Part shown: in pieces, positions 563 to 13,543 of the stretch
How the letters are laid out: each line of letters starts with the position of its first letter
Numbering within the stretch: position 1 is the stretch's first letter
Source of the DNA: an uncultured Nitrososphaerota archaeon
GTDB lineage: Archaea; Asgardarchaeota; Njordarchaeia; Njordarchaeales; Njordarchaeaceae
Reading direction: 5' to 3'
DNA length: 20,000 nucleotides
NCBI GenBank assembly: GCA_964518475.1
Contig: CAZFGR010000001.1
Span: 234,062-254,061, forward strand
Made by a program: the position numbers and the translations under genes
The notes under the pieces: generated by a model
What the model was told of the DNA's origin: nothing
Seen by the model: only the letters and a program-made list of their open reading frames with translations
Database searches by the model: none

Positions 563-712
563 TGGTGGGCCCGGGCGGATTTGAACCGCCGACCTCCCGG
601 TGTCTGAGACTATCTAGACTCCGAAGCTATTTATGACACTTGACACTTATTATTTTTATCAGGTGAGGCCTCTTATCAGCCGGGCGCTCTAGCCAGGCTG
701 AGCTACGGGCCC
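563..712 (-). tRNA. tRNA-Ile (anticodon GAU) with a 72-nt intron at the canonical 37/38 position; 3' CCA is genome-encoded
   Basis: The minus strand folds as GGGCCCG-UA-GCUC-AGCCUGGCUA-GAGC-G-CCCGG-CUGAUA[intron]A-CCGGG-AGGUC-GGCGG-UUCAAAU-CCGCC-CGGGCCC-A-CCA. All four stems are Watson-Crick. It is a GC-rich island in AT-rich DNA. Confidence 0.9.
602..673 (-). other. tRNA intron (72 nt) bounded by a canonical bulge-helix-bulge motif
   Basis: C32-A35 (CUGA) pair with intron UCAG. This leaves 3-nt bulges UA|A (5' splice site) and AC|A (3' splice site) separated by 4 bp. The intron contains the tandem AGUGUCA-AGUGUCA. Confidence 0.8.
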
Positions 713-2970: not shown

Positions 2971-3609
2971 TTATTCCCGAACTTCCGAGATTCCTAGCTT
3001 TTCCTTAGTCATTCTGGCTAGATTCTCAAGCTCGGCTTTATAGATTTCTGGAAAGACTCTATACAGCATGGCTAGACGAGCTGCTTCTTGGAAAACTCTC
3101 TTAACTCCTTTTCCATCGATAGCTATTGTTCTAAAGACTGGAAGTGGTCTGTCTATTCTTAAAGTTCTAAGAAGAACTGTTTCGGGTAATGCATCTGGCA
3201 AATCTCTTTTATTTAATGCAATAACTACTGGGATTTCACCCCATTTTTTACCAAGAAACTCTCGTAACTCGTTGATACTGTAAACGTTCTCATTTATGGC
3301 CTCGGGGTCACTATCAGCTACGAATACTACCGCATCGGCTCCCTCCAGGATAACTCTTCTTTGACGCTTATGTCTCTTCTGACCCGGTACGGTGTATACA
3401 TCAAACAATACTTTCCCTTTCGTTAATAGTGGCATATAATCAAAGTATAGAGTTCTGCCCGATGGGTCTTCTACAGAATGTATTCTTCCTTTTTTTAACC
3501 CTAGGATTCTATTATATAACGCTTTAACCATAGTTGTTTTTCCGGCCATCGAGGGGCCATAGAAAACAATTTTAAACCGATAGTAACCATGTCTGTCCTT
3601 ATATACCAT
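2971..3609 (-). CDS. MglA-like small GTPase
   Basis: The P-loop is GPSMAGKTT. Switch II is TVPGQ, with Thr in place of the Ras Asp, which is the MglA hallmark. ADAVVFVADS and NKRD motifs are also present. Confidence 0.8.
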   Translation of the reverse strand: MVYKDRHGYYRFKIVFYGPSMAGKTTMVKALYNRILGLKKGRIHSVEDPSGRTLYFDYMPLLTKGKVLFDVYTVPGQKRHKRQRRVILEGADAVVFVADSDPEAINENVYSINELREFLGKKWGEIPVVIALNKRDLPDALPETVLLRTLRIDRPLPVFRTIAIDGKGVKRVFQEAARLAMLYRVFPEIYKAELENLARMTKEKLGISEVRE

Positions 3610-3860: not shown

Positions 3861-4667
3861 TTAAAGAATGCGGGGCGCCAGTAGGTAAACTAATTCTGTT
3901 CCTCCACCTACCATGAAAGTCATCTTAAGTGGCATGTTCTTAGAATACTCTATTCTAACGACATCTGCTACCTTAGCGGCTCTTATGAATTTTCTAAGGA
4001 AGTCTAATGAGTATAAGGCCTCTGCATCATTTTTTATCTCGTATTGGACAACAGTGTCCTCTCGTTCTAAGGGTGCTACATATTCATAAAATCCACCTGT
4101 TTCGCTCTCAGCGATAAAACGCATTTCTTTTGTATCACTCGTAGTAACTAATCGTAGATCCTCTCCCACAACTTTAGCATCTGAGATTATGTCATTGAGG
4201 AAACTAGCAGGGGCGAACTCTACTAGTACGTCATACTGTAACTCCTTAACGTTTATCCTAGCTTCTTCAGGGATCTCTATAATTGGTAATGCGAAAGTCC
4301 TTTGTAATGATCGTTCGTCAAGGGTCCCCCTGAAGAAAGTGATTGCAAAGAATTGTCTATTTCTTTCCTTTCTGAGAGATAGTAATATGCTATCCTTTGC
4401 CTTTCCTCGTTGGAAAACTTTTTTCAACTCTCCAAAATTTACACCAATAACTATTGTGTCTCCATCCTCTGGGGGTTCAAAATCGTACTTGTGAAAAACA
4501 TTAGCCGGCATTTTTAATATAACCATGGCCACTCTTGATTCATCAATTGCAGAGAATTCGATACCATCTTCTCGAACATAGAAATTGCCCTCACTAATGA
4601 CACCAGATATTGCCGCGATAATCTCTCTTAGCGTTTTCGCTTCATCATAAGCAGCTTCCCATCTCAT
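3861..4667 (-). CDS. pcn: DNA polymerase sliding clamp PCNA
   Basis: The N-terminus ...LREIIAAISGVISEGNFYVREDGIEFSAIDESRVAMVILKMPANVF and the C-terminal YLLAPRI are PCNA-like. GGTGA lies 6 nt upstream of the ATG. Confidence 0.85.
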   Translation of the reverse strand: MRWEAAYDEAKTLREIIAAISGVISEGNFYVREDGIEFSAIDESRVAMVILKMPANVFHKYDFEPPEDGDTIVIGVNFGELKKVFQRGKAKDSILLSLRKERNRQFFAITFFRGTLDERSLQRTFALPIIEIPEEARINVKELQYDVLVEFAPASFLNDIISDAKVVGEDLRLVTTSDTKEMRFIAESETGGFYEYVAPLEREDTVVQYEIKNDAEALYSLDFLRKFIRAAKVADVVRIEYSKNMPLKMTFMVGGGTELVYLLAPRIL

Positions 4668-4977
4668 CTCTATTCACCGGTACATGATAATATTAACTAA
4701 ACACTGATCCAAATAAAGAGATAGAAAGATAAACATTAAACTTTTTTGGAGACTCTACACTAATCACCAGAAGATAGACACTAAAAGAACAAAGATATAG
4801 GGAGATATTATTAATGGAATATGCTCGTAAAGGTACCTTATTGTTTATCCTTCTTAATAGGTGGTGAGATAAGTTTGAAAGCTTTGATTTCGAGAGCCCA
4901 GAAAAATATGAAATAGCCTTACCTCCTTAGGTGCTTCTTTTTTCTCCCAATAGTTATCAGGTTGATTAGAAATTAGT

Positions 4978-5143
4978 GCCCGCCCCCGAGGTTTCCGTGT
5001 TCGGAATGGGAACGGGCGTGACCCCTCCCCTGTGGCCGCGTCCCCCTTTAAGGAGGACGCAGCAAGGGCCTTTCCCGCGCCCTCGCGGAGCGCGGTACTC
5101 GGTCCCTCGTGGGAGGGCTTAGCTTCCGGCCTCGGGGGCGGGT
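4978..5143 (-). rRNA. rrf: 5S rRNA gene, circularly permuted (3' half, then UUAAA cap, then 5' half) and flanked by a 13-bp leader/trailer helix
   Basis: The minus strand contains every 5S hallmark, but in swapped order. GCUAAGCCCUCCC, the loop E block GAGUA/GGGAAA and helix IV CCGCGC/GCGCGG come first. GGCCACAGGGGAGGGGUCACGCCCGUUCCCAUUCCGAACACGG comes last. The predicted mature segment is 5123 down to 4993 (131 nt, of which 126 nt is 5S plus a 5-nt cap). Confidence 0.8.
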
Positions 5144-5180
5144 TCGCCTGCCAACATCATCCATTACTACAGCTCATTCA

Positions 5181-5193
5181 TTTTTAAATTTTA
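5181..5193 (-). promoter_or_regulatory. TATA box candidate for the permuted 5S rRNA gene
   Basis: The minus strand reads UAAAAUUUAAAAA, about 38 nt upstream of the leader helix. A TATA box centred near -26 would put the transcription start near 5160 and give a leader of about 15-20 nt. Confidence 0.4.
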
Positions 5194-5248
5194 TTCTTCT
5201 TTTTATTCCTCAATCCAAATTACTGCTTGATTAGTGAAGGACTGCTGA

Positions 5249-5310
5249 AATCTCAGCCTGCCCATCGTCGCTCATCAATTCGCTCAAGGATGAATTCATC
5301 ATCGATGCCT
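5249..5310 (-). ncRNA. Candidate box C/D sRNA (weak)
   Basis: On the minus strand there is a C box AUGAUGA (5302-5296), a C' box UGAUGA (5277-5272) and a D box CUGA (5256-5253). A 3-bp terminal stem (AUC/GAU) is possible. D' is degenerate (GCGA or UUGA), and the C'-to-D spacer is 15 nt instead of the usual 12. Confidence 0.3.
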
Positions 5311-5359
5311 TGTTAAAAAATCTCTTCTACGAGTTAATGTCTTATAGGGCTGTAATTGT

Positions 5360-6673
5360 TTATATGAATTTCTTAACTCTAGCTAATCTCGGGAACGGTA
5401 AAGTGTCTCGAATATGATCTAATTTTAGTATCCACATAAGCAGTCTTTCAATACCTAATCCGAAACCACTATGAGGAACGCTTCCGTATCTTCTTAGATC
5501 TAGATACCAATCATAATCCCTCGGATCGAATCCTTCAGCTTTTATCCTTTCGATTAAAACATCTGCGTTATCTTCTCTTTGACTACCGCCTATTATCTCC
5601 CCGTAACCTTCAGGAGCCAATAGATCTGCTGATAAACTTATCTCTGGTCTTTTCTCGTCAACCTTAACGTAGAAGGCTTTAAGATGCGTGGGAAAATGCG
5701 TTAAGAAGAACCATTCTCCAATCTCTTCTGAAAGTATCTTTTCTTCATCTCCTCCAATATCATCTCCCCATTTTATTTTCATACCTTTGGATTGCAGAAT
5801 CTCTATTGCCTCATCATATTTTACTCTTTTAAACGGTGGTTTTACTTCTTCTAAGGAATCCAATGAGCCCCTAAATTCCTGAATTATTTTCGAGACTACA
5901 TCATTTTCAAGCAGTTTCTGGATGATGAGGTAGATAAGCTCCTCTTCTACCTTTAAAATATTTTCGAGATCATACCAAGCAGCTTCAGCTTCAAGGTGCC
6001 AATATTCTGCTAAGTGCCTTCTAGTTCTCGATTTTTCGGCTCGGAAAGAGGGAGTAAGACTCCAGACTTTTCCCAAAGAGAATATCATAACCTCCAGATA
6101 TAGCTGGGCTGATTGTGAAAGATAGACCTTTGAATTGTCGAAATAATTGACGGAGAATAGCGTTGCACCTCCTTCACATGCTGTACTGACTAGAATCGGT
6201 GGGGAGACTTCATACCAACCATTTTTTCGGAAATATTCTCGTGCTGCATGTAATAATGCGTCTCGTACGACCCATATTTTGGTATATCTGAGAGAGCGAA
6301 TCGCTAGATGCCTCCATCGCATAAGGACATCGGGCGGTTGTTCTTTTTTCCCCAAGGGGTATGGAGACTCGGCCACACTCGTAATCTCTAAGTCTTTTAC
6401 TATGAGCTCCTCTCCTCCGGGAGCTCTAGGATTCTTGACTAATTCACCCCTTACAACAACTGATGATTCCTGTGAAACACGCTCTAGAAGATTCCACTTA
6501 TTATCTGGTAACACACCTTTTTTGGCGACAGCCTGGAGGATTCTCCATGGAAAATCGGTAGTCCTCATATCTAAGAAGATTATTTTACCATGTTCCCTCT
6601 TCTTTACAACCCACCCTTTAAATTCTAGCAATTTATCTGTGCTCGTCATCTTAAATACCGCATGTAAAATCAT
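5360..6673 (-). CDS. asnS: Asparaginyl-tRNA synthetase
   Basis: This is a class IIb synthetase. The motifs TPSFRAEKSRTRRHLAEYWHLEAEAAW, KAFYV, LLAPEGYGEIIGGSQRE and WYLDLRRYGSVPHSGFGLGIERL closely match archaeal AsnRS. The track start (6712) is a TTG; ATG 6673 or ATG 6649 is more likely. Confidence 0.9.
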   Translation of the reverse strand: MILHAVFKMTSTDKLLEFKGWVVKKREHGKIIFLDMRTTDFPWRILQAVAKKGVLPDNKWNLLERVSQESSVVVRGELVKNPRAPGGEELIVKDLEITSVAESPYPLGKKEQPPDVLMRWRHLAIRSLRYTKIWVVRDALLHAAREYFRKNGWYEVSPPILVSTACEGGATLFSVNYFDNSKVYLSQSAQLYLEVMIFSLGKVWSLTPSFRAEKSRTRRHLAEYWHLEAEAAWYDLENILKVEEELIYLIIQKLLENDVVSKIIQEFRGSLDSLEEVKPPFKRVKYDEAIEILQSKGMKIKWGDDIGGDEEKILSEEIGEWFFLTHFPTHLKAFYVKVDEKRPEISLSADLLAPEGYGEIIGGSQREDNADVLIERIKAEGFDPRDYDWYLDLRRYGSVPHSGFGLGIERLLMWILKLDHIRDTLPFPRLARVKKFI

Positions 6674-6826
6674 ACTTGCCTTGCTGTTTAATGTGTAACT
6701 AAACCAACTCAAACAATTCCACTATCATGTTAAAGTTAGGTAGTAGTTTATGTTTAAGCATATTTATGACATCTTCTTAAAAGATGATTAACCAATTATC
6801 ATACTTGACAACGTTATAAACGATAG

Positions 6827-10880: not shown

Positions 10881-11504
10881 TCAACTTCTTTGTTGCTTTT
10901 TCTTTAGTTCTATCATTTTCGCTTGGATATAGTCAAAAATTACTTTTGCTAAAAAGTTGAATGCTTTGTCGATGTTTTCGCCAGTTTTTGCTGAAGTTTC
11001 TATATAGGGGATTGTAACTCCCACTTGTCTACTAGCAAGTTCGGCATATTTATAACCAGCTTCTGACGGAACTACGTCCTTTGCGGATCCTCTTAGATCT
11101 ATCTTATTACCAATAAGAACAAAGGGCCACATCCCCCCAGCATGTCTCCAGAATTCGCTTATCCATTTCGGCACATTATAGTATGTCTTAGGATTAGTTA
11201 CATCAAAGACAACAAGAGCTGCTCTAGCGCCCTTGTAATAGAGTGGACGTACTTGGTCGAAAGTTGGTTGGCCCGCTAGATCCCATAAGAACCAGTTGAT
11301 AATGACTTCACCGACCCGCTCATCATAATATCTCTGAGACTTTATGTAAAAGTCAGCACCGATTGTCTTTTTGTACTCATGTATAAAACTTTTTCCTAAG
11401 AATCTACGCGCGATAGAAGTTTTTCCTACTCCACCATCCCCTATCAAGACAACCTTTATCTGTACTGCTTTAGGAGATGCTTTTCTTTTTGTTATATCAG
11501 ACAT
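10881..11504 (-). CDS. Rab/Ras-like small GTPase
   Basis: All five G motifs are present: G1 GDGGVGKTS, G2 KKTIGADF, G3 WDLAGQ, G4 GNKIDL and G5 ETSAKTGENI. There is no C-terminal Cys prenylation motif; the protein ends KKKQQRS. Confidence 0.85.
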   Translation of the reverse strand: MSDITKRKASPKAVQIKVVLIGDGGVGKTSIARRFLGKSFIHEYKKTIGADFYIKSQRYYDERVGEVIINWFLWDLAGQPTFDQVRPLYYKGARAALVVFDVTNPKTYYNVPKWISEFWRHAGGMWPFVLIGNKIDLRGSAKDVVPSEAGYKYAELASRQVGVTIPYIETSAKTGENIDKAFNFLAKVIFDYIQAKMIELKKKQQRS

Positions 11505-11851: not shown

Positions 11852-12745
11852 ATGCTTGAGTCAGATAATTCCGACTCCTCCATTATAAATGAAAATAATG
11901 AAAATTATGAAAAATGCCCTAACTGCGGATCCACTAACCTAAGTCTTGATAATAATGGAATGTTAGTTTGTTACAATTGTGGTTACGTGATAGAGAATAT
12001 TATTTTAAGTAGTGAATACGAGAAGCGAATTTTCAGTTCTGAAGATACTATTTTTTCATCACGAATCACACCTCCTACCGATCCTCTATTGAAACATTCC
12101 CGTATGGAATTATTACGAATGATTCAGAAAGAAGATAAAGAGCTGCTCTCTTATGAGCCCTCAGAGACCAGACTTAAAAGAAAACTTGAGGGCGTTATGA
12201 TTGAAGTCTGCAAAAATCTGCATTTACCATCATCTACGTTCAAAACTGCTCTAAACATGCTTATAAAGTATGCTCAAAGATACAGTATAAGAGAAAAGAA
12301 GCTAAAAGCCTTTGTAGCTGCTGCGCTCTACGTAGCTGCTCGTCAGACCGGTCATCCACAGCCTATAGATAAGATTCTTAAGAAGACCGGATTAAGCAAG
12401 AAAGAGTTCTCTAAAGCATTTAAATTGCTAAGAGAGCGATTAAAGCTTCACTTAGCTCCTATAAGTCCAGAACAATACGTAATATCTTTTGGAAAAGAGT
12501 TAGGTCTATCGGGTAAAGCTATAAAATTAGCAATAAAGATTTTGAAACATGCCTATGAATATGGTTTAACAATAGGGAAAGATCCAGCTGGTCTTGCAGC
12601 TGCTTCTCTCTTCGCTGCTTCTATCGCGACTGGCGAGCATAGAAGCCAGAGGAGGATAGCGGAGATAGCCTCTATTACAGAGGTTACGGTGAGAACCCGA
12701 TACAAGGAGTTGAAAAAATACATTACACAACTTAGTATATTGTAA
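11852..12745 (+). CDS. tfb: Transcription initiation factor B (TFB/TFIIB)
   Basis: An N-terminal Zn ribbon CPNCGS...CYNCGY is followed by two cyclin-fold repeats (AAALYVAARQTGHPQPIDKI; AGLAAASLFAASIATGEHRSQRRIAEIASITEVTVRTRYKEL). The B-reader region is divergent, with EYEKRIF in place of PEWRAF. Confidence 0.88.
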   Translation: MLESDNSDSSIINENNENYEKCPNCGSTNLSLDNNGMLVCYNCGYVIENIILSSEYEKRIFSSEDTIFSSRITPPTDPLLKHSRMELLRMIQKEDKELLSYEPSETRLKRKLEGVMIEVCKNLHLPSSTFKTALNMLIKYAQRYSIREKKLKAFVAAALYVAARQTGHPQPIDKILKKTGLSKKEFSKAFKLLRERLKLHLAPISPEQYVISFGKELGLSGKAIKLAIKILKHAYEYGLTIGKDPAGLAAASLFAASIATGEHRSQRRIAEIASITEVTVRTRYKELKKYITQLSIL

Positions 12746-12865: not shown

Positions 12866-13543
12866 ATGACGACTTCGAGGCGAGAAAAATTGTTAGGAAA
12901 AGATAAGGAAGAGCACCCATTTGAATTCAAAATTGAGAACTGCGTTGGTTCGGCAAATTTAGGCATTACAATCGATCTACAAGAACTTTATAAAAGACTT
13001 CTAAAACTTCAGACAGAAATGCGTGAGACTGTAAGAGACACAGAAATGACTGAGGAGTGGCCGTTCTTAGTTAGACATCAGCCAAGAGAATTCCCCGGAC
13101 TAATTCTTAAGCTTCGATATAAGGTTCGGGCTAGCTTGTTAATTTTTAGCTCGGGTAATATTGTCATCACTGGCGCAAAAAGTAAAGAGGAGATAGAGAA
13201 GGTTGCTGAGATAATTGTTAATCTATTAAGAAGAGCTGGCTTTAACATTGAAAGAAAACCTAATATTGAATTACAAAATATAGTAGCTAGTGCGGATCTT
13301 AAAAAACCCATTAATCTTGAGTTAGTAGCCATGCTCGGAGGAGAAAACGTCGCTTACGAACCCGAAATTTTTCCTGGTCTCATTTATAGAATTGAAGAAC
13401 CTAAAGTGGTCTTACTCCTATTTAGGTCGGGTAAAGTAGTTTGTACTGGTGCAAAATCTCGAGAGATGATTATTGAAGCTTTAAAGATCATTGATGAAAG
13501 ATTAAGAGAAATGAATGCTTATGTTGAAGAGCTTGGTTTCTGA
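12866..13543 (+). CDS. tbp: TATA-box binding protein, atypical (insertion in the first repeat plus an N-terminal extension)
   Basis: There are two TBP repeats. The second, LQNIVASADL...YEPEIFPGLIYRIEEPKVVLLLFRSGKVVCTGAKS, is canonical. The first, IENCVGSANL...REFPGLILKL...LLIFSSGNIVITGAKS, carries about 18 extra residues between helix H1 and strand S2. Confidence 0.85.
   Translation: MTTSRREKLLGKDKEEHPFEFKIENCVGSANLGITIDLQELYKRLLKLQTEMRETVRDTEMTEEWPFLVRHQPREFPGLILKLRYKVRASLLIFSSGNIVITGAKSKEEIEKVAEIIVNLLRRAGFNIERKPNIELQNIVASADLKKPINLELVAMLGGENVAYEPEIFPGLIYRIEEPKVVLLLFRSGKVVCTGAKSREMIIEALKIIDERLREMNAYVEELGF

What the first reader, a model, noticed from the sequence alone, without database searches (positions are those of the whole stretch)
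4978..5143. Circularly permuted 5S rRNA gene: 3' half encoded before 5' half, with the native termini capped by a loop
The minus strand reads ACCCGCCCCCGAGG-CCGG-AAG-CUAAGCCCUCCCACGAGGGACCGAGUACCGCGCUCCGCGAGGGCGCGGGAAAGGCCCUUGCUGCGUCCUCC-UUAAA-GGGGGACGCGGCCACAGGGGAGGGGUCACGCCCGUUCCCAUUCCGAACACGG-AAA-CCUCGGGGGCGGGC. In every 5S rRNA I know, the block CCCAUUCCGAAC(A/C)CGGAAG(C/U)UAAGCC (loop C plus the helix III 3' strand) is contiguous. Here it is split, with GCUAAGCC... at the gene's 5' end and ...CCGAACACGG at its 3' end. If the two halves are swapped, the result is a 126-nt molecule colinear with Sulfolobus-type 5S. Helix I is GGGGGACGC/GCGUCCUCC, helix II is GGGAGGG/CCCUCCC, and helix III is GCCCGU/ACGG-AA-GC with its conserved AA bulge. 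Loop E is GAGUA/GGGAAA and helix IV is CCGCGC/GCGCGG. In the genome the normal 5' and 3' ends (helix I) are joined by a UUAAA pentaloop (5047-5051). Known precedents, from memory, are permuted tRNA genes (Cyanidioschyzon, Thermofilum), a permuted SRP RNA (Thermoproteus) and a permuted 23S (Pyrococcus). I do not know of a described permuted 5S rRNA gene.
Basis: partly seen in the sequence, partly recalled or inferred. Interest (0 to 1): 0.92.

Follow-up and report, generated by a model that had tools for sequence, protein, structure and literature searches.

The report
Circularly permuted 5S rRNA gene
This archaeon, a hot-spring relative of the Asgard group Njordarchaeota, encodes its 5S ribosomal RNA with the back half before the front half, flanked by a signal resembling those that archaeal tRNA-splicing enzymes cut and rejoin, so the finished 5S is probably a closed circle, which has not been described for a 5S rRNA gene.

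Summary
On the minus strand, 5123..4993 holds a complete 5S rRNA in permuted order: 72 nt of 3' part, a UUAAA cap, then 54 nt of 5' part. Rfam's colinear 5S model gives only two sub-threshold hits in swapped order (24.5 and 21.1 bits; threshold 38). A model built only from ordinary 5S rRNAs permuted in silico matches end to end (69 bits).

The arrangement is not an artefact. Eleven distinct versions occur in independent assemblies, including three MAGs labelled Njordarchaeota. The 5S helices covary (93.9% paired; 19 of 33 pairs with double changes). The gene order AspRS-5S-PCNA-GTPase and a TATA box are conserved.

An invariant relaxed bulge-helix-bulge motif follows (leader CCGR-AA|G, trailer-strand NCGG-AA|A). 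Cutting at the standard bulge positions and ligating would restore the canonical ...CGGAAGCUAAGCC... block.

The helix I caps are often stable tetraloops (UUCG, GNRA). I therefore infer that the mature form is a circular 5S rRNA. This is untested.

The closest precedent is the permuted, circular SRP RNA of Thermoproteus. I could not check for a colinear 5S elsewhere in the genome.

The parts
5181..5192 (-). TATA-like promoter box AAAATTTAAAAA, about 38 nt upstream of the leader helix
   Evidence: Read. It is the only conserved block in otherwise diverged upstream DNA when aligned with the orthologous loci L031 and L040. Its promoter function is inferred.
5130..5142 (-). Leader strand of the outer processing helix (CCCGCCCCCGAGG)
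   Evidence: It pairs over 13 bp with 4991..4979. An equivalent helix of 10-16 bp and unrelated sequence occurs in all 11 distinct loci. Against L031 there is a compensatory A-U to C-G change, and the adjacent G-C pair becomes G-U.
5124..5129 (-). Leader CCGG (central-helix strand of the bulge-helix-bulge motif) plus AA (first two bulge nucleotides); predicted to be discarded
   Evidence: CCGR-AA is invariant in all 11 loci although the adjacent helix sequences differ. CCG pairs with CGG 4997..4995 in cofolds of all lineages. The cleavage site between 5124 and 5123 is inferred.
5052..5123 (-). 5S rRNA 3' segment (72 nt): GC of helix III, helix II 3' strand, helices IV/V with loops E and D, helix I 3' strand
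   Evidence: Rfam partial hit to model positions ~45-120. Positions 1-70 of the permuted model R1. Covariation.
5047..5051 (-). UUAAA loop capping helix I where the native 5' and 3' ends would be
   Evidence: In relatives this position holds UUCG (twice), GUAA, GCAA, GUUA, UAGA, UUUG or AUUC.
4993..5046 (-). 5S rRNA 5' segment (54 nt): helix I 5' strand, loop A, helix II 5' strand, helix III 5' strand, loop C, ACGG, AA
   Evidence: Rfam partial hit to model positions 28-51 at 5016..4993. Model R1 positions 75-121.
4992..4992 (-). Third nucleotide (A) of the trailer-strand AAA bulge; first nucleotide of the discarded trailer
   Evidence: The AAA bulge lies between the central helix and the outer helix in all 11 loci. 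The cleavage position is inferred from the standard rule, which the tRNA-Ile intron in this same window follows.
4979..4991 (-). Trailer strand of the outer processing helix (CCUCGGGGGCGGG)
4964..4975 (-). Possible weak oligo-T terminator (UAAUUUCUAAUC)
   Evidence: Sequence only. The orthologues L031 and L040 have T5 directly after the trailer helix. The bacterial-type terminator scan found nothing.

Best explanation
This is the working 5S rRNA gene of a thermophilic archaeon closely related to MAGs labelled Candidatus Njordarchaeota, encoded in circularly permuted order.

It is transcribed from its own TATA promoter as a precursor of about 190 nt: leader, 5S 3' part, 5-nt cap, 5S 5' part, trailer. 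Leader and trailer pair over 13 bp. This places a relaxed bulge-helix-bulge (bulge-helix-loop) motif at the two 5S boundaries.

The central helix is leader CCGG with 5S ACGG. The AAA bulge lies on the trailer strand. AAG on the leader strand opens into a loop.

The tRNA-splicing endonuclease EndA would cut after the second nucleotide of each bulge (5124|5123 and 4993|4992). The RNA ligase RtcB would join the 2',3'-cyclic phosphate end to the 5'-OH end. This creates ...CCGAACACGGAA-GCUAAGCC..., which is the canonical loop C and helix III with its AA bulge.

The product is a covalently closed 131-nt 5S rRNA whose helix I is capped by a loop. I propose that this circle is the form built into the ribosome.

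Shown:
- the permuted order
- full 5S structure conserved under covariation
- clade-wide conservation
- the leader-trailer helix and the invariant motif
- exact restoration of the canonical sequence by the predicted cuts

Inferred:
- that EndA and RtcB act here
- that ligation occurs
- that the circle is not reopened

My sub-confidences are: functional permuted 5S gene 0.9; processing at the motif by the splicing endonuclease 0.75; ligation to a circle 0.65; circle as the mature ribosomal form 0.5.
For: Permutation:
- Rfam gives split, swapped, sub-threshold hits.
- The in-silico-permuted canonical model hits end to end at 69 bits.
- The rearranged sequence is 68-77% identical to canonical 5S over its full length.

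Function:
- There are 11 distinct versions, from 7 species genomes, further metagenome contigs and the window.
- On 9 distinct 5S cores, 93.9% of cells pair, against 75% in shuffles and 40-51% when partners are slid. 19 of 33 pairs carry double changes, with 0 of 500 shuffles as high.
- The 131-nt core is identical between the window and L031/L040, while neighbouring proteins are 79-91% identical and flanking DNA has diverged.
- The TATA box is conserved.
- None of the permuted loci has a colinear 5S within the ~100 kb of related DNA examined.

Processing:
- An outer helix of 10-16 bp occurs at a fixed register in 11 of 11 loci, with unrelated sequences.
- Leader CCGR-AA|G and trailer-strand NCGG-AA|A are invariant.
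- The predicted duplex structure is identical in all lineages.
- The polarity (helix, 4-nt central helix, 3-nt bulge) and the cut rule match the tRNA-Ile intron in this window.
- Thermoproteus SRP RNA shows that this route yields functional circles (PMC4731332).

Circle retained:
- Caps are 4-5 nt with no conserved sequence.
- They include C(UUCG)G twice independently, GUAA and GCAA.
- An E. coli 5S with a tetraloop joining the native ends supports viable ribosomes (PMC7283268).
- Circular 23S in mature archaeal ribosomes is reported (PMC12918454).
Against: - There are no RNA data, so cleavage, ligation and ribosome incorporation are all inferred.
- The motif is relaxed. There is no inner helix after the leader-strand AA|G.
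- In the ACGG group, which includes this window, the fourth central pair is G.A or A.A. The motif therefore needs a broad-specificity endonuclease, and I did not examine which type this lineage has.
- The internal strand CCGU competes with the leader for ACGG.
- MFE folds of the circle at 37 C do not always give the textbook 5S fold.
- I could not search the rest of the genome for a colinear 5S.
- Recent literature states that 5S, unlike 16S and 23S, is not processed through circles (PMC12918454).
Confidence: 0.5

Rival explanations
1. The mature 5S is a permuted linear molecule. The precursor is trimmed at the motif, by EndA or another nuclease, but the ends are not ligated. The ribosome then carries a 131-nt 5S with a capped helix I and its 5' and 3' ends at the helix III AA bulge.
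For: Brown-algal mitochondrial 5S is permuted in the final product as well as in the gene (PMC4267664). Helix III could hold a nick closed through GC:GC plus CCGU:ACGG pairing. The stable caps fit this reading as well as they fit a circle.
Against: Splicing-endonuclease products are the natural substrates of RtcB. Excised introns, pre-16S, pre-23S and the Thermoproteus SRP RNA are all ligated (PMC4731332, PMC10515664). The cuts fall exactly where ligation restores an uninterrupted universal sequence block. A merely trimmed molecule would not need this. A nick two base pairs from a helix end is fragile at high temperature.
Confidence: 0.2
2. The circle is only an intermediate. It is reopened at the helix I cap to regenerate a conventional linear 5S of about 126 nt, as in the permuted tRNA genes of Cyanidioschyzon.
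For: In permuted tRNAs the intervening sequence is removed after circularisation (cited in PMC4267664). Circular pre-16S and pre-23S are generally thought to be re-linearised (PMC10515664).
Against: The cap is only 4-5 nt with no conserved sequence. It is often a hyperstable UUCG or GNRA tetraloop closed by C-G. That is what one expects of a permanent structural cap, not of a processing spacer. No enzyme is known that opens such a loop precisely. Between the close relatives L011 and L036 the loop changed from GUUA to GCAA while the stem stayed the same.
Confidence: 0.12
3. The locus is a 5S-derived paralogue or relic that is not the ribosomal 5S. A normal colinear 5S gene elsewhere in the genome serves the ribosome.
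For: Only about 100 kb of related DNA was checked.
Against: - All universal 5S features are intact.
- Compensatory changes occur in every helix across 9 distinct cores.
- The core is 100% identical between species whose neighbouring proteins are 79-91% identical.
- The gene has its own conserved promoter box.
- The flanking motif is conserved precisely where it restores the canonical sequence.

A relic would decay, and a paralogue with another role would not need to keep every ribosomal contact element.
Confidence: 0.05
4. The permuted order is an assembly or binning artefact.
For: The window comes from a metagenome contig.
Against: The same order is found in 11 distinct sequences from NCBI MAGs, ENA and several JGI metagenomes. 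Some lie on contigs of 150-212 kb with conserved flanking genes. Lineage-specific compensatory changes span the junction regions.
Confidence: 0.01

Closest known systems
Permuted, circular SRP RNA of Thermoproteus tenax and T. uzoniensis (Plagens et al. 2015, PMC4731332)
   Same: A universal structured RNA is encoded with its 3' part before its 5' part. Leader and trailer pair into a bulge-helix-bulge motif. In that case the tRNA-splicing endonuclease was shown to cut it. Ligation restores a conserved functional element, and the mature RNA is a stable circle in a thermophile.
   Different: The RNA here is a ribosomal RNA (5S), not SRP RNA, and the lineage is different (Njordarchaeia). The trait is spread across many species of a clade. 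No experiment exists here. The junction lies in the helix III AA bulge, so a native 5S bulge doubles as part of the splice motif.
Permuted tRNA genes (Cyanidioschyzon merolae; also reported in Thermofilum, from my own knowledge)
   Same: The 3' half lies upstream of the 5' half. A bulge-helix-bulge motif forms at the precursor termini. There is a circular RNA stage.
   Different: In tRNAs the circle is reopened by RNase P and tRNase Z, which remove an intervening sequence. Here the intervening sequence is only a 4-5 nt tetraloop-type cap with no known opening activity.
[quoted passage not shown]
   Same: A leader-trailer processing stem carries a bulge-helix-bulge motif, followed by EndA cleavage and RtcB ligation. 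In some lineages the 23S stays circular or permuted in the ribosome.
   Different: Those genes are colinear, and the permutation arises after transcription. Here the gene itself is permuted and circularisation would restore the native connectivity. The literature explicitly excludes 5S from this pathway (PMC12918454).
Brown-algal mitochondrial permuted 5S rRNA (Rfam mtPerm-5S; Valach et al. 2014, PMC4267664)
   Same: It is a natural 5S rRNA whose helix I is a closed hairpin and whose ends lie elsewhere.
   Different: It is an organelle RNA. Its ends lie at the three-way junction between domains, not in helix III. It has no splice motif or ligation, and its sequence is highly derived. No Rfam match other than RF00001 and a chance frameshift element was listed for this locus at E up to 10.
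Engineered circularly permuted 5S (cp5S) in E. coli (Huang et al. 2020, PMC7283268)
   Same: The native 5' and 3' ends are joined by a 4-nt connector, and the ribosomes function.
   Different: It is artificial. It was opened in loop C or D and fused into 23S rRNA.
Low-level circular 5S reads in Sulfolobus solfataricus and Halobacterium salinarum (Danan et al. 2012, PMC3326292)
   Same: They suggest that archaeal 5S ends can be joined into a circle.
   Different: Those genes are colinear. The circles were minor, were not validated by RT-PCR, and were possibly degradation intermediates.

Membership tests
5S rRNA (Rfam RF00001) | Colinear match to the family covariance model at or above the gathering score (38 bits) | tested here: not met
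   There is no gathering-level hit in the window. The best hits are 24.5 and 21.1 bits, in swapped order. None of the other permuted loci passes, whereas canonical controls score 77-112 bits.
5S rRNA (Rfam RF00001) | Three-way junction with helices I-V, supported by covariation | tested here: met
   It is met in permuted order. Model R1, built from permuted canonical 5S, matches end to end at 69 bits. 93.9% of cells pair and 19 of 33 pairs carry double changes.
5S rRNA (Rfam RF00001) | Conserved loop C and helix III block CCCAUNCCGAACNCGGAAGYUAAGC, with the AA bulge | tested here: met
   It is present only as two pieces...CCCAUUCCGAACACGGAA at 5010..4993 and GCUAAGCC at 5123..5116. It becomes contiguous only after the two ends are joined.
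5S rRNA (Rfam RF00001) | Loop E element (AGUA / GAA) | tested here: met
   GAGUAC and GGGAAA flank helix IV in the window. L014 deviates.
5S rRNA (Rfam RF00001) | Component of the large ribosomal subunit | not testable with these tools
   This needs RNA from ribosomes or a cryo-EM map.
Splice-motif-dependent permuted RNA genes (permuted tRNA, Thermoproteus SRP RNA) | 3' part of the RNA encoded upstream of the 5' part in one transcription unit | tested here: met
   A single conserved TATA box lies upstream.
Splice-motif-dependent permuted RNA genes (permuted tRNA, Thermoproteus SRP RNA) | Leader and trailer pair to form a central 4-bp helix flanked by at least one 3-nt bulge (definition as in PMC4731332) | tested here: met
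   The AAA bulge lies between the 13-bp outer helix and the central helix in all loci. The central helix has 4 Watson-Crick pairs in L006, L030 and L018. It has 3 pairs plus R.A in the window's group. The second site, AA|G, lies in an open loop, so the strict form with two flanked bulges is not met.
Splice-motif-dependent permuted RNA genes (permuted tRNA, Thermoproteus SRP RNA) | Cuts at the standard bulge positions followed by ligation give the functional contiguous sequence | tested here: met
   Cutting after the second bulge nucleotide on each strand gives ...ACGGAA + GCUAAGCC..., the canonical sequence. The tRNA-Ile intron in this window follows the same rule.
Splice-motif-dependent permuted RNA genes (permuted tRNA, Thermoproteus SRP RNA) | Demonstrated cleavage by the splicing endonuclease and junction-spanning (circular) RNA | not testable with these tools
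   No transcript data or enzyme assay is available.
Mitochondrial permuted 5S (Rfam mtPerm-5S) | Match to the mtPerm-5S model; ends at the junction between the alpha and gamma domains | tested here: not met
   Only RF00001 and a chance frameshift element were listed at E up to 10. Rfam keeps only the best of overlapping matches to families of one clan, so a weaker mtPerm-5S match under the RF00001 hits could have been hidden if the two share a clan. The break here is in the helix III 3' strand.

The most novel reading that the evidence does not exclude
In Njordarchaeia the 5S rRNA inside the ribosome is a covalently closed circle, made from a permuted gene by the tRNA-splicing machinery. This would be the first natural circular 5S rRNA and the first 5S rRNA gene that needs RNA ligation to become functional. 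The permutation would also be a shared derived character of a clade whose placement (Asgard versus Korarchaeota) is disputed.
Probability: 0.5. Interest if true: 0.88.

Novelty: new variant of a known kind. Interest (0 to 1): 0.82.

Why it matters
- **RNA biology.** 5S rRNA is a universal RNA with a highly conserved secondary structure, and its gene is treated as colinear in archaeal, bacterial and nuclear genomes. A clade-wide permuted gene that depends on cutting and rejoining extends splice-motif-driven RNA rearrangement from tRNA and SRP RNA to a ribosomal RNA. It also contradicts the current statement that 5S stays outside the circularisation pathway (PMC12918454).
- **A testable prediction.** It predicts a naturally circular 5S in a thermophile's ribosome. 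This bears on why 5S is kept as a separate molecule and on how RNA ends are protected at high temperature.
- **Annotation.** The Rfam 5S model misses these genes at its threshold, and other colinear 5S finders probably do too. Njordarchaeia MAGs will then look as if they lack 5S and will fail 'high-quality MAG' criteria that require it. A permuted model corrects this.
- **Phylogeny.** As a rare genomic change, the permutation could help test whether Njordarchaeaceae and Panguiarchaeaceae belong together (PMC12411855). MAGs labelled Crenarchaeota, Nitrososphaerota or 'uncultured archaeon' carry the same permutation, with cores closely similar to those of Njordarchaeota-labelled MAGs.

Tried and rejected
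- **ARAGORN** on the window found nothing, although Rfam finds an intron-containing tRNA.
- **The bacterial-type promoter and terminator scan** found nothing around the locus. It is not suited to archaea, so I read the TATA box from the alignment instead.
- **The first collection pattern** returned 32 loci, of which 25 were false positives. These were bacterial and archaeal 23S-5S junctions, where GYTAAGCC near the 23S 3' end precedes a normal 5S, and tandem 5S copies. I reused them as canonical controls.
- **Model R1 separates the classes only partly.** Such false positives score 42-62 bits against 62-79 bits for true permuted loci. The decisive features are therefore the helix I hairpin, the missing GYUAAGC after CGGAA, and the flanking helix.
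- **The MAFFT alignment of the precursors** (A2) misaligned the cap region. I used the model-fitted alignment A3 for pair counts and a gap-free anchored comparison for the flanks.
- **MFE folding** of the circular or rearranged RNA recovers helix I, helices IV/V and the distal part of helix III. It recovers helix II only in some lineages, so I did not use it as evidence for the 5S fold.
- **An alternative register** (leader bulge GAA with a 3-bp central helix) was rejected. It would give CGGAAAGC after ligation rather than the canonical CGGAAGC, and it would shorten the spacing the endonuclease measures.
- **Plus-strand feature.** None was found. There is no ORF of 60 aa or more across 4668..5359, and the only RNA matches (Rfam and model R1) are on the minus strand.
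- **Literature searches** for a described archaeal permuted or circular 5S gene found none.
Full report
**1. The observation**

The region is a G+C-rich island (0.56-0.61) in a 0.39 G+C window. It lies in an ORF-free gap between an aspartyl/asparaginyl-tRNA synthetase gene (5360..6712, minus) and a PCNA gene (3861..4667, minus).

Rfam finds no 5S rRNA at gathering level anywhere in the window. With relaxed thresholds on 4900..5250, RF00001 gives two sub-threshold hits in the wrong order:
- 24.5 bits, where only model positions ~45-120 align convincingly, to 5129..5054.
- 21.1 bits for model positions 28-51, at 5016..4993, downstream of the first.

**2. An equivalent of the 'rearranged sequence' test**

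Arbitrary sequences cannot be submitted to Rfam here, so I inverted the test.

- I took 13 ordinary 5S rRNAs picked up as by-catch (bacteria, two Thermoplasmatota, one Halorussus). Each scores 77-112 bits on RF00001.
- I cut each at CGGAA|G, moved the 5' part behind the 3' part, and joined the native ends with an arbitrary tetraloop.
- RNAalifold recovered helices I, II, III and IV/V on this alignment.
- I built covariance model R1 from it.

R1 contains no sequence from the clade under study. It matches 4993..5123(-) from its first to its last position at 69 bits (E about 1e-15). This is the only hit in the window.

The in-silico rearranged 126-mer shares 79-90 identical positions with canonical 5S rRNAs of 116-122 nt. 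The native order shares only 36-42.

R1 is not a clean classifier. 23S-5S junctions and tandem 5S copies score 42-62 bits. The hairpin-closed helix I and the missing GYUAAGC after CGGAA are what set the real cases apart.

**3. It is real, conserved and under selection**

A signature pattern (loop C ... CGGAA lying 90-120 nt downstream of GYTAAGCC) found 7 true permuted loci among 185,579 species genomes:
- three MAGs named Candidatus Njordarchaeota (L014, L030, L031)
- one 'Crenarchaeota archaeon JZ-1.bin_83' (L006)
- one 'Promethearchaeati archaeon' (L011)
- one 'Nitrososphaerota archaeon' (L018)
- one 'uncultured archaeon' from the same sample as the window (L015)

The other 25 hits were ordinary 23S-5S or tandem arrangements. 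A stricter pattern found 7 more in JGI metagenomes. Together with the window this gives 11 distinct sequences. All score 62-79 bits end to end on R1, and none reaches the Rfam 5S threshold.

On the R1-fitted alignment (9 distinct cores), the measures are as follows:

| Measure | Observed | Control |
|---|---|---|
| Cells that pair | 93.9% | 75% in shuffles; 40-51% with partners slid |
| Pairs with changes on both sides | 19 of 33 | 0 of 500 shuffles as high |

The alignment was fitted to a structure derived from unrelated 5S rRNAs. It therefore leans toward that structure, but not toward these particular sequences.

The window's nearest relatives (L031, L039, L040) keep the gene order AspRS - 5S - PCNA - GTPase, with 79-91% protein identity for the neighbouring genes. 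L011, L036, L015 and L041 keep parts of this order. Between the window and L031/L040:
- The 131-nt core is 100% identical.
- The surrounding intergenic DNA has diverged, apart from an AAAATTTAAAAA box (window 5192..5181).
- The leader-trailer helix carries a compensatory change. Window GAGG/CCUC becomes GCGG/CCGU, so an A-U pair becomes C-G and a G-C pair becomes G-U.

Misassembly and pseudogene decay are therefore excluded.

**4.

I anchored all 11 sequences at the two 5S boundaries without gaps.

- Leader and trailer are complementary over 10-16 contiguous pairs at the same register in every locus.
- The helix sequences are unrelated between lineages, for example CCCGCCCCCGAGG, CACCGGCACCCCAAG, CCAGCACUCUGGG and AAACUCGCAUCGGGA.
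- At a fixed register, ten consecutive pairs have a chance probability of about (6/16)^10, roughly 5e-5 per locus (my arithmetic).

Between this helix and the 5S sequence, every locus has leader CCGR-AA followed by the first 5S nucleotide G. Every locus also has the last 5S nucleotides NCGG-AA followed by A and the trailer helix. Two-strand folding gives the same structure in all ten lineages tested: outer helix, a 3-nt AAA bulge on the trailer strand, then a 3-4 bp helix (CCG(R)/(Y)CGG), then an open region beginning AAG on the leader strand.

This has the polarity of an archaeal bulge-helix-bulge splice motif: on each strand, helix, 4-nt central helix, 3-nt bulge. I checked that polarity against an internal control, the tRNA-Ile(GAU) gene at 566..712(-) of this window.
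- Its 72-nt intron at position 37/38 sits in CCCGG-CUGA-UA|A ... UCAG-AC|A-CCGGG (sequence).
- The cuts there fall after the second bulge nucleotide.

Applying the same rule here cuts 5124|5123 and 4993|4992. Joining the retained ends gives ...CCCAUUCCGAACACGGAA-GCUAAGCC..., the uninterrupted canonical loop C and helix III block. The universal AA bulge of helix III is supplied by the first two nucleotides of the trailer-strand bulge.

The motif is relaxed:
- No inner helix follows the leader-strand AA|G, so it is a bulge-helix-loop.
- In the window's group the fourth central pair is G.A or A.A. In L006, L030 and L018 it is A-U.
- In those three, the leader CCGA is an exact copy of the helix III 5' strand. 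In all loci the leader and the internal strand CCGU/CCGA compete for the same NCGG.

[quoted passage not shown] The strict two-flanked-bulge form is not.

**5. Mechanism proposed**

The steps below are inferred unless marked as shown.

1. Transcription starts about 25 nt downstream of the TATA box. The box is shown as conserved; its function is inferred.
2. The trailer pairs with the leader and draws NCGG away from helix III into the splice motif.
3. The tRNA-splicing endonuclease cuts both sites.
4. The 5S body refolds. GC:GC stacking on CCGU:ACGG holds the 5'-OH G5123 next to the cyclic-phosphate A4993.
5. RtcB seals them.

The result is a 131-nt circle.

Three observations favour the circle as the final product rather than an intermediate.
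- The element joining the native ends is only 4-5 nt long.
- Its sequence is not conserved.
- It is repeatedly a classic stable tetraloop closed by C-G: UUCG in L030 and L037 independently, GUAA in L015, GCAA in L036. The others are GUUA, UAGA, UUUG, AUUC and UUAAA.

This is what a permanent cap looks like, not a processing spacer.

Independent support comes from published work:
- E. coli ribosomes tolerate a 5S whose native ends are joined by a 4-nt connector (PMC7283268).
- The Thermoproteus SRP RNA matures as a functional circle by this route (PMC4731332).
- Circular 23S rRNA has been reported in mature archaeal ribosomes (PMC12918454).
- Minor, unvalidated circular 5S reads were seen in Sulfolobus and Halobacterium (PMC3326292).

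**6. Rivals**

- **Cut but not ligated.** A permuted linear 5S with ends in helix III, analogous to brown-algal mitochondrial 5S, which is permuted in the product (PMC4267664). I rate this 0.2.
- **Circle reopened at the cap.** This would regenerate conventional ends, as in permuted tRNAs. I rate this 0.12 because of the nature of the caps.
- **Non-ribosomal paralogue with a normal 5S elsewhere.** I rate this 0.05. Only about 100 kb of related DNA was checked for colinear 5S, with no hit.
- **Assembly artefact.** Excluded.

**7. Comparison with what is known, and novelty**

Searches of the held literature for a permuted or circular 5S found three things:
- the brown-algal mitochondrial case
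- the engineered E. coli construct
- the minor Sulfolobus and Halobacterium circles

A 2026 paper states that archaeal 16S and 23S, 'but not 5S rRNAs', are processed through circles (PMC12918454). The library is incomplete because subscription journals are missing, so prior description cannot be ruled out.

The principle is known: a permuted RNA gene rescued by the tRNA-splicing machinery. The RNA, the clade and the predicted circular ribosomal 5S are new. I class this as a new variant of a known kind.

**8. Organism**

The window lies on a 173-kb contig from ENA assembly ERZ1742239. Its closest relative among named records is Candidatus Njordarchaeota isolate B77_G9 (L031). NCBI places that phylum in Promethearchaeati, the Asgard archaea.

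The window also encodes Arf-like and Ras/Roc-like small GTPases, TFB, TBP and ribosomal proteins. The placement of Njordarchaeia, Asgard versus Korarchaeota-related, is debated (PMC12411855). A rare structural change such as this one could serve as an independent marker. I did not establish which of the loci belong to which family.

**9. Limits**

Everything about RNA processing is inferred from DNA. I did not examine the endonuclease type of the clade. The E-values from model R1 are rough because its calibration was shortened.

Noticed in passing
window 566-712 (minus strand): A tRNA-Ile(GAU) gene with a 72-nt intron at the canonical 37/38 position. Rfam scores it 55.3 bits, but ARAGORN reports no tRNA at all in the window. 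Its splice motif (CUGA/UCAG central helix, bulges UA|A and AC|A) served as the internal control. Similar 139-nt Rfam tRNA hits, long enough to contain an intron, occur in L031 7823-7961 and L040 11561-11699; their sequences were not inspected.
   Followed up: partly
window 2971-3609 (minus) and 10881-11504 (minus): Two small GTPases, one Arf-like and one Ras/Roc-like, which are eukaryote-type signature proteins typical of Asgard archaea. The Arf-like gene is syntenic with the permuted 5S in most relatives.
   Followed up: partly
window 11852-12745 (+) and 12866-13543 (+): The genes for transcription factor B and TATA-binding protein lie next to each other.
   Followed up: no
L006 1879-2234; L030 5582-5920; L018 3069-3236: In the lineages whose 5S has UCGG, the permuted 5S lies about 100-130 nt downstream of a cluster of two or three tRNA genes, not next to PCNA. 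It is possibly co-transcribed with them.
   Followed up: no
L006, L018, L011, L015 (record titles): MAGs labelled Crenarchaeota, Nitrososphaerota, Promethearchaeati or 'uncultured archaeon' carry the same permuted 5S, with cores closely similar to those of MAGs labelled Njordarchaeota. The labels are probably inconsistent, and the permuted 5S could serve as a clade marker.
   Followed up: partly
L025 5975-6461 (Halorussus amylolyticus): A truncated second 5S copy (54.5 bits, 6364-6461) is followed by a stretch with a tRNA T-arm-like sequence (GGTTCGATTCCGCGAG). This lies directly upstream of the complete 5S (6210-6331). It looks like a partial duplication or insertion.
   Followed up: no
L008, L010, L020, L022 (Mycobacterium and Mycolicibacterium scaffolds): In three of the four scaffolds (L008, L020, L022), identical tandem 5S copies are interrupted by runs of N; L010 shows the same tandem copies with no N. 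This is most likely a scaffolding or gap artefact at rRNA operons, not a real tandem arrangement.
   Followed up: no
window 5126 with 4998, and equivalents in L031, L039, L037, L011, L036, L015, L014: The fourth pair of the central helix is always purine.A in lineages with ACGG. It is never the U that would give four Watson-Crick pairs, although the competing internal strand is CCGU. This suggests a tuned competition between the splice motif and helix III.
   Followed up: partly
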